64,000 nt of DNA from Escherichia coli. Lineage in GTDB: Bacteria > Pseudomonadota > Gammaproteobacteria > Enterobacterales > Enterobacteriaceae. This document shows positions 3,001-5,342 of the stretch, in pieces; the stretch's first letter is position 1, and each line of letters begins with the position of its first letter. The stretch lies in NCBI RefSeq assembly GCF_003991155.1, contig NZ_CP031293.1; one strand, given 5' to 3'. The position numbers were made by a program.

Positions 3001-5342
3001 GGAGCATCAAACCAGTGGGCATATTCGCTTTCACGGTACCGACGTGAGCCGTCTGCACGCGCGGGACCGTAAAGTCGGTTTCGTGTTCCAGCATTACGCG
3101 CTGTTTCGCCATATGACGGTGTTTGACAATATCGCTTTTGGCCTGACGGTGTTGCCACGGCGTGAACGCCCGAATGCGGCGGCGATCAAAGCGAAAGTGA
3201 CAAAATTGCTGGAGATGGTGCAGCTCGCGCATCTGGCGGATCGTTATCCGGCGCAGCTTTCCGGCGGCCAGAAACAGCGTGTGGCGCTTGCACGCGCGCT
3301 GGCTGTGGAACCGCAAATTTTGCTGCTTGATGAACCGTTTGGCGCGCTGGATGCGCAGGTGCGTAAAGAGCTGCGTCGCTGGCTGCGTCAGTTGCATGAA
3401 GAGCTGAAATTCACCAGTGTGTTCGTGACCCATGACCAGGAAGAAGCGACCGAAGTAGCCGATCGTGTAGTGGTGATGAGCCAGGGCAATATCGAGCAGG
3501 CTGATGCACCGGACCAGGTATGGCGCGAACCAGCGACCCGTTTTGTACTCGAATTTATGGGCGAAGTTAACCGCCTGCAGGGAACCATTCGCGGCGGGCA
3601 GTTCCATGTTGGCGCACATCGCTGGCCGCTGGGCTATACACCTGCGTATCAGGGGCCAGTGGATCTCTTCCTGCGTCCGTGGGAAGTGGATATCAGCCGC
3701 CGTACCAGCCTCGATTCGCCGCTGCCGGTACAGGTACTGGAAGCCAGCCCGAAAGGCCACTACACCCAATTAGTCGTGCAGCCGCTGGGGTGGTACAACG
3801 AAGCGCTGACGGTCGTGATGCACGGCGACGACGCCCCGCAACGTGGCGAGCGTTTATTCGTTGGTCTGCAACATGCGCGGCTGTATAACGGCGACGAGCG
3901 TATTGAAACCCGCGATGAGGAACTTGCTCTCGCACAAAGCGCCTGATAGGTTGAGTGAATGTTAAACGCCCGGAGGCGCTTCCCGCGATCCGGGCTTTTT
4001 AATGGCAAGGTTTGTAACCTGTAGGTCTGATAAGACGCGTAAGCGTCGCATCAGGCAACACCACGTATGGACAGAGATCGTGAGTACATTAGAACAAACA
4101 ATAGGCAATACGCCTCTGGTGAAGTTGCAGCGAATGGGGCCGGATAACGGCAGTGAAGTGTGGTTAAAACTGGAAGGCAATAACCCGGCGGGATCGGTAA
4201 AAGACCGTGCAGCGCTTTCGATGATTGTCGAGGCGGAAAAGCGCGGCGAGATTAAACCGGGTGATGTGTTGATCGAAGCCACCAGTGGTAACACCGGCAT
4301 TGCGCTGGCAATGATTGCCGCGCTTAAAGGCTATCGCATGAAATTGCTGATGCCCGACAACATGAGCCAGGAACGCCGTGCGGCAATGCGTGCCTACGGT
4401 GCGGAACTGATTCTGGTCACCAAAGAGCAGGGCATGGAAGGTGCGCGCGATCTGGCGCTGGAGATGGCCAATCGTGGTGAAGGAAAGCTGCTCGATCAGT
4501 TCAATAATCCCGATAACCCTTACGCCCATTACACCACTACCGGACCGGAAATCTGGCAGCAAACCGGCGGGCGCATTACCCATTTTGTCTCCAGCATGGG
4601 AACAACCGGCACTATCACCGGCGTGTCACGCTTTATGCGCGAACAATCCAAACCGGTGACGATTGTTGGCCTGCAGCCGGAAGAAGGCAGCAGTATTCCA
4701 GGCATTCGCCGCTGGCCTGCGAAATATCTGCCGGGGATTTTCAACGCTTCTCTGGTGGATGAGGTGCTGGATATTCATCAGAGCGATGCGGAAAACACCA
4801 TGCGCGAACTGGCAGTGCGGGAAGGGATTTTCTGTGGCGTCAGCTCCGGCGGCGCGGTTGCCGGAGCACTGCGGGTGGCAAAAGCTAACCCTGGCGCGGT
4901 GGTGGTGGCGATCATCTGCGATCGTGGCGATCGCTACCTTTCTACCGGGGTGTTTGGGGAAGAGCATTTTAGCCAGGGGGCGGGGATTTAAGATTATTGC
5001 GCAGGCACCGTTTTATCCGTCTGCGCAATTAACGCATGTAAAAAAGGCTGTGCGTTCTCATCGCTCTTACCGGGCATCTTCACGATATACGGCTTCCCGG
5101 TAATCGATGACGACGAGGCCACCTTGTCAATAAACTGCTCGGCTGTATCAATGCGATTACGGGTATTGCCCAGCTTCAGTCGCAGATGAGAAACCGCTTC
5201 ATCGCAGGTATGTTCATCACCGTTACGCACAAATATTAAATCCTTTTTCTGTGCTAATCCCTCCAGCATAGCGTTGATACGGGCTTCTTCATGGGCAGTT
5301 AACTTCGCATAAGCGGGGAGTGTCATTAGCAGCGTAACGACC

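What the first reader, a model, noticed from the sequence alone, without database searches (positions are those of the whole stretch)
4980..5040. cysM and yfeK stop codons are 3 bp apart; yfeS appears absent
From memory, K-12 has yfeS (about 244 aa, WGR-domain protein) between yfeK and cysM. Here the two convergent genes abut, and a strong palindrome (TTGCGCAG-N16-CTGCGCAA, 5003-5034) lies inside the last codons of yfeK. This could be a lineage-specific deletion or the ancestral state. My recall of the K-12 order is not certain.
Basis: partly seen in the sequence, partly recalled or inferred. Interest (0 to 1): 0.25.

Follow-up and report, generated by a model that had tools for sequence, protein, structure and literature searches.

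The report
Common yfeS-free cysM–yfeK junction
This E. coli strain lacks the small gene yfeS that K-12 carries between cysM and yfeK, but so do about three quarters of E. coli genomes and related species, so the tight junction is the normal older arrangement and yfeS is an optional imported gene.

Summary
cysM (4080-4991, +) and yfeK (4994-5362, -) converge with 2 nt, not 3, between their stop codons. The palindrome is ATTGCGCAG-N16-CTGCGCAAT at 4996-5029, not 5003-5034.

The yfeS-free junction is the majority state. Of 5426 complete E. coli genomes, 4038 have the contiguous junction and 1387 hold yfeS DNA anywhere. These sum to the 5425 genomes that carry the locus. The same junction occurs in a non-coli Escherichia lineage and in Pseudocitrobacter faecalis. 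Other Enterobacteriaceae also have cysM and yfeK adjacent without yfeS.

The K-12 insert is AT-rich (yfeS 39% GC against 56% for cysM) and bounded by an 8-bp direct repeat. Its closest relatives outside the E. coli-type group are only 45-65% identical, and those that carry an organism name are Firmicutes or Bacteroidota. A Pseudocitrobacter MAG has the same insert at 96% identity, while its flanking genes are 80-90% identical. No genome has the product expected from precise excision. So yfeS is a horizontally acquired accessory gene, and this strain has not recently lost it.

The palindrome is a modest hairpin without a U tract. It is not shown to be a terminator.

This is an ordinary, already annotated gene presence/absence polymorphism.

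The parts
4080..4991 (+). cysM (cysteine synthase B), last gene of the cysPUWAM cluster; stop TAA at 4989-4991
   Evidence: ORF list. RefSeq annotation of the identical strain 2016C-3878. Window 1-14000 is identical to that record.
4992..4993 (.). 2-nt spacer (GA) between the convergent stop codons
   Evidence: Sequence read directly. The same TAA-GA-TTA geometry is in 8 diverse yfeS-free E. coli loci. It is also in non-coli Escherichia L004 (TAA-GA-TTA in this orientation) and, with the spacer read as GT, in Pseudocitrobacter faecalis L005.
4994..5362 (-). yfeK (DUF5329, 122 aa, tail ...KTVPAQ*), two codons shorter than the K-12 form (124 aa, ...KTVPAEGN*)
   Evidence: Pfam PF17263, E=1.8e-31. 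RefSeq annotation. Translations compared.
4993..4999 (.). Segment ATTATTG, which is replaced in yfeS-carrying genomes. In K-12 the REP/BIME + yfeS insert lies here, and homology resumes at CGCAGG (window 5000).
   Evidence: Junction alignments. The 8-bp direct repeats GGATTAAT lie 952 bp apart in K-12.
4996..5029 (.). Inverted repeat ATTGCGCAG-N16-CTGCGCAAT inside the last codons of yfeK, starting 5 nt after the cysM stop codon
   Evidence: Sequence. Perfect-repeat scan. RNA fold -16.3 kcal/mol, z -2.1 on the + strand. No U tract, and not called by the terminator scan.
5396..5423 (-). Sigma-E-type promoter-like motif GAAACTT-N16-TCAAA upstream of yfeK
   Evidence: Pattern found. The consensus is recalled from memory, and no promoter activity was tested. 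yfeK(S) is reported as a sigma-E regulon operon in K-12 (PMC2685091, PMC11502571).

Best explanation
The window carries the common, older haplotype of the cysM/yfeK tail-to-tail junction, in which the two genes end 2 nt apart.

yfeS is not a core gene that was lost here. It is an accessory cassette of about 950 bp: one REP/BIME repeat plus a low-GC WGR-domain gene. It sits between 8-bp direct repeats (GGATTAAT) in a minority of E. coli, including K-12, HS and B. In those genomes it rewrote the last codons of yfeK (PAQ* became PAEGN*) and became the second gene of the sigma-E-driven yfeKS operon.

Inferred: the cassette spread by homologous recombination of its flanks, including between Escherichia and Pseudocitrobacter.

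The palindrome in the empty haplotype arises from the yfeK codons ATT-GCG-CAG ... CCT-GCG-CAA-TAA. It can form an 11-bp stem (9 perfect pairs plus G-C and G-U) just after the cysM stop codon.

Inferred: at most it acts as a 3' stabilising hairpin or weak terminator for the cys mRNA. In yfeS-carrying strains the REP/BIME downstream of cysM could fill that role.
For: Shown:
- K-12 has cysM, a 188-bp REP-containing spacer, yfeS, a 32-bp spacer, then yfeK. The window and strain 2016C-3878 have cysM then yfeK directly.
- 4038 of 5426 complete E. coli genomes have the contiguous empty junction.
- 1387 genomes contain any yfeS DNA at blastn sensitivity. 4038 + 1387 = 5425, the number of genomes with the locus.
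- The empty-junction sequence is invariant in 8 diverse E. coli. It recurs in non-coli Escherichia L004 and in P. faecalis L005 with the same PAQ* tail and a 2-nt spacer.
- Citrobacter amalonaticus, Superficieibacter sp. 1612_C1, UBA5654 and Entomohabitans have cysM and yfeK 1-57 nt apart without yfeS.
- yfeS is 39.2% GC against 56.5% for cysM.
- Positions 16-162 of the insert recur 11-56 times per genome, as expected of a REP/BIME.
- Beyond the E. coli-type cluster, YfeS homologues are 45-65% identical. The named ones are from Paenibacillus, Lysinibacillus, Clostridium, Dysgonomonas and Bacteroidota.
- A Pseudocitrobacter MAG has the identical insert boundaries. Its yfeS is 95.9% nt identical to K-12, against 89.6% for cysM and 80.5% for yfeK.
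- No genome holds the precise-excision product. The best full-length match is 93.8% and is the ordinary empty allele.
- Literature: yfeK and yfeS form a sigma-E operon in K-12.
Against: - The direction of the event rests on parsimony across lineages, not on a rooted tree. Both haplotypes are old: two yfeS alleles 97.3% identical exist in E. coli, and both states occur in Pseudocitrobacter. An ancient deletion followed by divergence of the junction is not strictly excluded.
- The genome-contig scan returned only 22 loci. It did not return Salmonella or E. fergusonii.
- The Pseudocitrobacter yfeS locus comes from a MAG contig of 15.6 kb.
- The source genome was not searched for yfeS directly. 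Absence elsewhere rests on the counting argument.
- Any function of the hairpin is untested. It lacks a U tract, has a long loop and is not conserved outside the PAQ* allele.
Confidence: 0.85

Rival explanations
1. Lineage-specific deletion: an ancestor of this strain had yfeK-yfeS-cysM as in K-12 and lost yfeS, bringing the two stop codons together.
For: - The K-12 insert is flanked by 8-bp direct repeats (GGATTAAT), which could mediate a deletion.
- A yfeS-free strain, TUM2820, has a left flank 99.2% identical to K-12.
Against: - Recombination between the repeats would give TAAGGATTAATTTCCTTCCGCAGG with a PAEGN* tail. No genome of 5426 has this; the best full-length match is 93.8%.
- The actual junction (TAAGATTATTGCGCAGG, PAQ*) is identical in all sampled phylogenetically diverse E. 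coli, in a non-coli Escherichia lineage and in P. faecalis.
- 74% of genomes share it.
Confidence: 0.07
2. yfeS is present in this genome but at another locus, so its absence here reflects relocation.
For: None found. One yfeS match on a plasmid and up to 2 places per genome show that extra copies are possible.
Against: - There is no YfeS-like sequence in the 64-kb window.
- Genomes with any yfeS DNA (1387) plus genomes with the empty junction (4038) equal all 5425 genomes with the locus. This leaves no room for empty-junction genomes that carry yfeS elsewhere, unless an equal number of genomes with a disrupted junction lack it.
Confidence: 0.02
3. The palindrome is a selected, functional bidirectional terminator shared by cysM and yfeK, and it explains why the genes can abut.
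For: - It starts 5 nt after the cysM stop codon and folds to -16.3 kcal/mol (z -2.1) on the cysM strand.
- The arms are invariant in the sampled empty alleles. The one arm change seen, in L004, keeps a G-U pair on the cysM strand.
- Most other inverted repeats of this size in the window are terminators.
Against: - There is no U tract on either strand, and the loop is 12-16 nt. The consensus scan does not call it.
- On the yfeK strand z is only -1.1, and the hairpin lies upstream of the stop codon, where ribosomes would melt it.
- It is absent from the adjacent-gene junctions of Citrobacter, Superficieibacter and UBA5654.
- It is weakened in the yfeS allele (TTCCGCAG).
- About 3 repeats of this strength are expected per window by chance.
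- The arm invariance is confounded by coding constraint on yfeK.
Confidence: 0.2

Closest known systems
K-12 yfeK-yfeS-cysM locus (b2419-b2421)
   Same: Flanking genes, gene order and orientation (cysA, cysM, yfeK, pdxK, crr, ptsI) are the same. The sigma-E-type promoter motif upstream of yfeK is also seen in this window.
   Different: The window lacks the roughly 955-bp REP/BIME + yfeS segment. YfeK ends PAQ* (122 aa) instead of PAEGN* (124 aa). The flanks are only about 93-96% identical to K-12.
Accessory-gene insertion at a convergent gene junction
   Same: Different unrelated cargos occupy the same yfeK/cysM junction in different taxa, and most are AT-rich relative to the flanks:
- yfeS in E. 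coli and Pseudocitrobacter.
- 1.8 kb with two ORFs in E. albertii.
- 3.8 kb with two large ORFs of unknown function, one with weak TPR matches, in C. sedlakii.
- A SnoaL/DUF4440 gene in Superficieibacter electus.

   Different: No integrase, transposase, tRNA or att-like site is associated. The cargos are one or two genes, far smaller than classical genomic islands.
Rho-independent (intrinsic) terminator between convergent genes, e.g. pdxK/crr at window 6319-6346
   Same: A GC-rich inverted repeat lies at a tail-to-tail junction.
   Different: The pdxK/crr element has 12-bp arms, a 4-nt loop and flanking A and T runs. The cysM/yfeK repeat has 9-bp arms, a 16-nt loop and no T run, and it lies inside coding sequence.

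Membership tests
YfeS / WGR-domain protein (PF05406) | An ORF with a WGR domain homologous to K-12 YfeS, located between yfeK and cysM | tested here: not met
   K-12 YfeS matches PF05406 at E=6e-18. The window has no tblastn or blastn match to YfeS/yfeS (best E=1.6), and the junction spacer is 2 nt.
YfeK family (DUF5329, PF17263) | Match to the DUF5329 profile above Pfam's gathering score | tested here: met
   108.7 bits against a cutoff of 27, E=1.8e-31, residues 24-115.
Intrinsic terminator | GC-rich stem of at least 5 pairs | tested here: met
   9 perfect pairs, extended to 11 in the fold, -16.3 kcal/mol.
Intrinsic terminator | Short loop (3-8 nt) | tested here: not met
   The loop is 12-16 nt.
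Intrinsic terminator | U/T tract directly after the stem | tested here: not met
   The + strand continues TAACGCATGTAAAAAA and the - strand AATCTTAAATCCCC. The terminator scan finds nothing here.
REP/BIME element at the junction | Sequence repeated many times per E. coli genome, with REP palindromes | tested here: not met
   The K-12 insert (positions 16-162) recurs 11-56 times per genome. The window junction contains none of it. A REP does lie upstream of cysM at about 4020-4057, which gives a partial naRNA4 match at E=0.013, below the gathering score.
Transposable element (as an explanation for the K-12 insert) | Flanking direct repeat resembling a target-site duplication | tested here: met
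   GGATTAAT occurs at L001 2093 and 3045. The empty allele has only GATTAT at this site, so the match to a duplication is imperfect.
Transposable element (as an explanation for the K-12 insert) | Transposase gene or terminal inverted repeats | tested here: not met
   The only annotated CDS in the insert is yfeS, whose only Pfam match is WGR. Comparing the insert ends by eye shows no convincing terminal inverted repeats (sequences).
Anti-phage defence system (PADLOC) | Match of YfeS, YfeK or the E. albertii cargo ORFs to a defence-protein model | tested here: not met
   No family at E<=0.01.

The most novel reading that the evidence does not exclude
The 3' end of yfeK next to cysM could be a recurrent, mechanistically targeted insertion hotspot in Enterobacteriaceae.

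- At least four unrelated small cargos have landed within the same roughly 15 nt.
- The two insertions aligned at nucleotide level, yfeS and the E. albertii cargo, share a left breakpoint right after cysM TAAG, and their right breakpoints lie in or next to the left arm of the palindrome.
- Each insertion gives YfeK a new C-terminal tail.
- The yfeS cassette is shared between Escherichia and Pseudocitrobacter.

On this reading the hairpin or the adjoining REP machinery would direct the insertions. The alternative is that selection simply tolerates insertions only at this spot.
Probability: 0.06. Interest if true: 0.4.

Novelty: already known. Interest (0 to 1): 0.08.

Why it matters
It matters little. 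It reminds us that K-12 is not the reference state for E. coli: yfeS is an accessory gene found in about a quarter of complete genomes, a share inflated by laboratory K-12 and B derivatives. The sigma-E-driven 'yfeKS operon' described in K-12 is therefore a monocistronic yfeK unit in most strains. Phenotypes reported for K-12 yfeS mutants, such as boric-acid sensitivity (PMC11502571), cannot be assumed for the species. The locus is also a compact example of small cargo genes turning over at a convergent gene junction.

Tried and rejected
- A global MAFFT alignment of the window against K-12 misplaced the gap. I redid the junctions by coordinates.
- My first CysM query was translated one base out of frame. 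It still marked the gene positions, and I corrected it.
- Terminator and promoter consensus scans of 3900-5500 found nothing at the junction.
- An Rfam scan of 3000-7000 gave only a sub-threshold REP-related naRNA4 match upstream of cysM.
- PADLOC gave no defence-system match for YfeS, YfeK or the E. albertii cargo.
- Pfam gave no informative domain for the E. albertii 280-aa ORF or the C. sedlakii 628-aa ORF.
- A search for the hypothetical precise-excision allele found none.
- I looked for terminal inverted repeats at the ends of the K-12 insert by eye and found none convincing.
- I could not search the complete source genome for yfeS, because the tools give no per-genome filter. I used the counting argument instead.
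- I did not assign phylogroups computationally. Any statement that yfeS-carrying strains such as K-12, HS and B belong to phylogroup A, and that ST131/Nissle, O157:H7 and O111:H8 do not, rests on my own knowledge.

Full report
**What is in the window.**
- The ORF list and sequence show cysW, cysA and cysM on the + strand. cysM runs from GTG 4080 to TAA 4989-4991.
- yfeK is on the - strand (5362 down to stop 4996-4994). It is followed by pdxK (+), crr (-) and ptsI (-).
- Window 1-14000 is base-for-base identical to E. coli strain 2016C-3878 (NZ_CP029747.1). RefSeq annotates the same genes there, with cysM and yfeK separated by two bases.
- The palindrome is ATTGCGCAG (4996-5004), N16, CTGCGCAAT (5021-5029), about 6 nt left of the coordinates given.
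- It is formed by the yfeK codons ATT GCG CAG ... CCT GCG CAA TAA (...[11 protein letters not shown]).

**Comparison with K-12.**
MG1655 has cysM, a 188-bp spacer, yfeS (244 aa, PF05406 WGR, E=6e-18), a 32-bp spacer, then yfeK.
- Homology with the window ends right after cysM TAAG and resumes at CGCAGG (window 5000).
- The K-12-specific segment begins and ends with the 8-bp direct repeat GGATTAAT, 952 bp apart.
- Its cysM-proximal part (insert positions 16-162) recurs 11-56 times in every E. coli genome, so it is a REP/BIME.
- yfeS is 39.2% GC, against 56.5% for cysM.
- In the yfeS haplotype, YfeK is two codons longer (PAEGN* instead of PAQ*), and the left arm of the palindrome is damaged (TTCCGCAG).

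**How common is each state.**
- The 111-bp junction (4940-5050) is contiguous in 4038 of 5426 complete E. coli genomes.
- yfeS DNA, searched at blastn sensitivity, is present in 1387 genomes, almost always once.
- 4038 + 1387 = 5425, exactly the number of genomes that have the locus.
- The two states therefore partition the species. yfeS is not hiding elsewhere in empty-junction genomes. The window itself has no YfeS-like sequence.
- The yfeS-carrying set includes many K-12, DH1, JM109, MC4100, HS and B derivatives.
- The empty set includes ST131, Nissle, O157:H7, O55:H7, O111:H8 and the type strain ATCC 11775.
- The empty-junction sequence TAA-GA-TTATTGCGCAGG is invariant in eight loci whose flanks differ by up to 7%.

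**Which state is older.** A scan of species-representative genomes with YfeK, followed by local tblastn, gave these results:
- The same PAQ* tail and 2-nt spacer occur in a non-coli Escherichia lineage (L004) and in Pseudocitrobacter faecalis (L005).
- cysM and yfeK are directly adjacent (1-57 nt) without yfeS in Citrobacter amalonaticus, Superficieibacter sp. 1612_C1, UBA5654 and Entomohabitans.
- In Escherichia sp. E1V33 the two genes overlap, so that their stop codons lie 12 nt past each other.
- yfeS appears only in one Pseudocitrobacter MAG (L006), with exactly the K-12 boundaries and the PAEGN* tail. There yfeS is 95.9% nt identical to K-12, while cysM is 89.6% and yfeK 80.5%. This is the signature of transfer between genera after they diverged.
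- Outside this near-identical cluster, YfeS homologues are only 45-65% identical. The named ones come from Paenibacillus, Lysinibacillus, Clostridium, Dysgonomonas and Bacteroidota.
- The allele expected from deletion between the GGATTAAT repeats does not exist in any of the 5426 genomes. The best full-length match is 93.8% and is the ordinary empty allele.

Together these results make insertion of an imported cassette into an ancestrally tight junction the best explanation. A recent deletion in this lineage is unlikely.

**The junction as a landing site.** Other taxa carry other cargo at the same place:
- E. albertii has 1819 bp at 34.5% GC, with two ORFs (one a weak DKNYY match).
- C. sedlakii has 3819 bp, with two large ORFs of unknown function (628 and 654 aa); the 654-aa one has weak TPR matches.
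- Superficieibacter electus has 516 bp, with a SnoaL/DUF4440 gene.
- The E. albertii breakpoints are again just after cysM TAAG and inside the palindrome loop. Each insertion gives YfeK a new tail.
- No integrase, transposase or att-like feature accompanies them, and PADLOC finds no defence proteins.

I read this as selection filtering where insertions are tolerated. cysM must stay intact, and only the last few yfeK codons are expendable. I do not read it as a targeted mechanism, though that remains the most novel reading not excluded.

**The palindrome.**
- As RNA on the cysM strand it folds into an 11-pair stem with a 12-nt loop: -16.3 kcal/mol, z -2.1, with 8 of 200 shuffles as good.
- On the yfeK strand z is -1.1.
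- No U tract follows on either strand, and the terminator scan does not call it.
- The window has 17 perfect repeats with 9-bp or longer arms, against 3.2 in shuffles. Most of the others are classic A-run/T-run bidirectional terminators, such as pdxK/crr at 6319-6346. This one is among the weakest.
- It is absent from the adjacent-gene junctions of other genera.
- Its conservation within the PAQ* allele cannot be separated from coding constraint.
- A role as a 3' hairpin for the cys mRNA is plausible but only inferred. In yfeS-carrying strains a REP/BIME could fill that role.

**Literature.** In K-12, yfeK and yfeS are described as one sigma-E-dependent operon (PMC2685091, PMC11502571). A sigma-E-like motif, GAAACTT-N16-TCAAA, lies upstream of yfeK in the window at 5423-5396 on the - strand. 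In this strain, as in most E. coli, that unit would contain yfeK alone.

**Verdict.** The absence of yfeS is the normal, majority and probably ancestral state. The presence/absence polymorphism is already visible in public annotation. Interest is low.

Noticed in passing
L006 (Pseudocitrobacter MAG CAJYVI010000176.1) 4376-5316 versus L001 (K-12) 2093-3047: The REP/BIME + yfeS cassette is shared between Escherichia and Pseudocitrobacter with identical boundaries. yfeS is 95.9% identical, against 80-90% for the flanking core genes, which suggests inter-genus transfer by homologous recombination. P. faecalis DSM 27453 (L005) has the empty allele, so both genera are polymorphic.
   Followed up: partly
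L010 4331-6149 (E. albertii); L011 4364-8182 (C. sedlakii); L013 4376-4891 (S. electus): Unrelated small cargos occupy the same yfeK/cysM junction in other species, and each changes the YfeK C-terminal tail. E. albertii has two AT-rich ORFs, C. sedlakii has two large ORFs of unknown function (one with weak TPR matches), and S. electus has a SnoaL/DUF4440 gene.
   Followed up: partly
L029 (O157:H7 strain 6535WT), corresponding to window ~5040-5046: yfeK is annotated as frameshifted in this O157:H7 genome, with an A6 run shortened to A5. Other genomes also show a 110-nt span for the 111-nt query, so the pseudogene may be lineage-wide.
   Followed up: no
L032 (strain E1624) 2208-2905; also strain LR-03 (H31/H101): IS1 insertions disrupt yfeS in some yfeS-carrying genomes. 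This fits a dispensable gene.
   Followed up: no
window 4020-4057: A REP-type palindromic element lies in the cysA-cysM spacer. It gives a partial, sub-threshold Rfam naRNA4 match (30.1 bits against a gathering score of 59.5, E=0.013).
   Followed up: no
window 4400-5600 and flanks: The cysM-yfeK-pdxK region is unusually diverse within E. coli, with pairwise identities of about 93-99% in about 600-bp flanks. Only 55 of 5427 matching records are >=99% identical to the window. This suggests recombination or old haplotypes at the locus.
   Followed up: partly
L003 (Escherichia sp. E1V33) 1417-1428: In this lineage yfeK and cysM overlap tail-to-tail, with their stop codons 12 nt past each other, and YfeK ends ...TTVPSNP*. 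This is a third variant of the tight junction.
   Followed up: no
window 6319-6346: A textbook bidirectional terminator (AAAAATGGCGCC-GATG-GGCGCCATTTTT) lies between the convergent pdxK and crr genes. It is a useful contrast to the cysM/yfeK palindrome.
   Followed up: no
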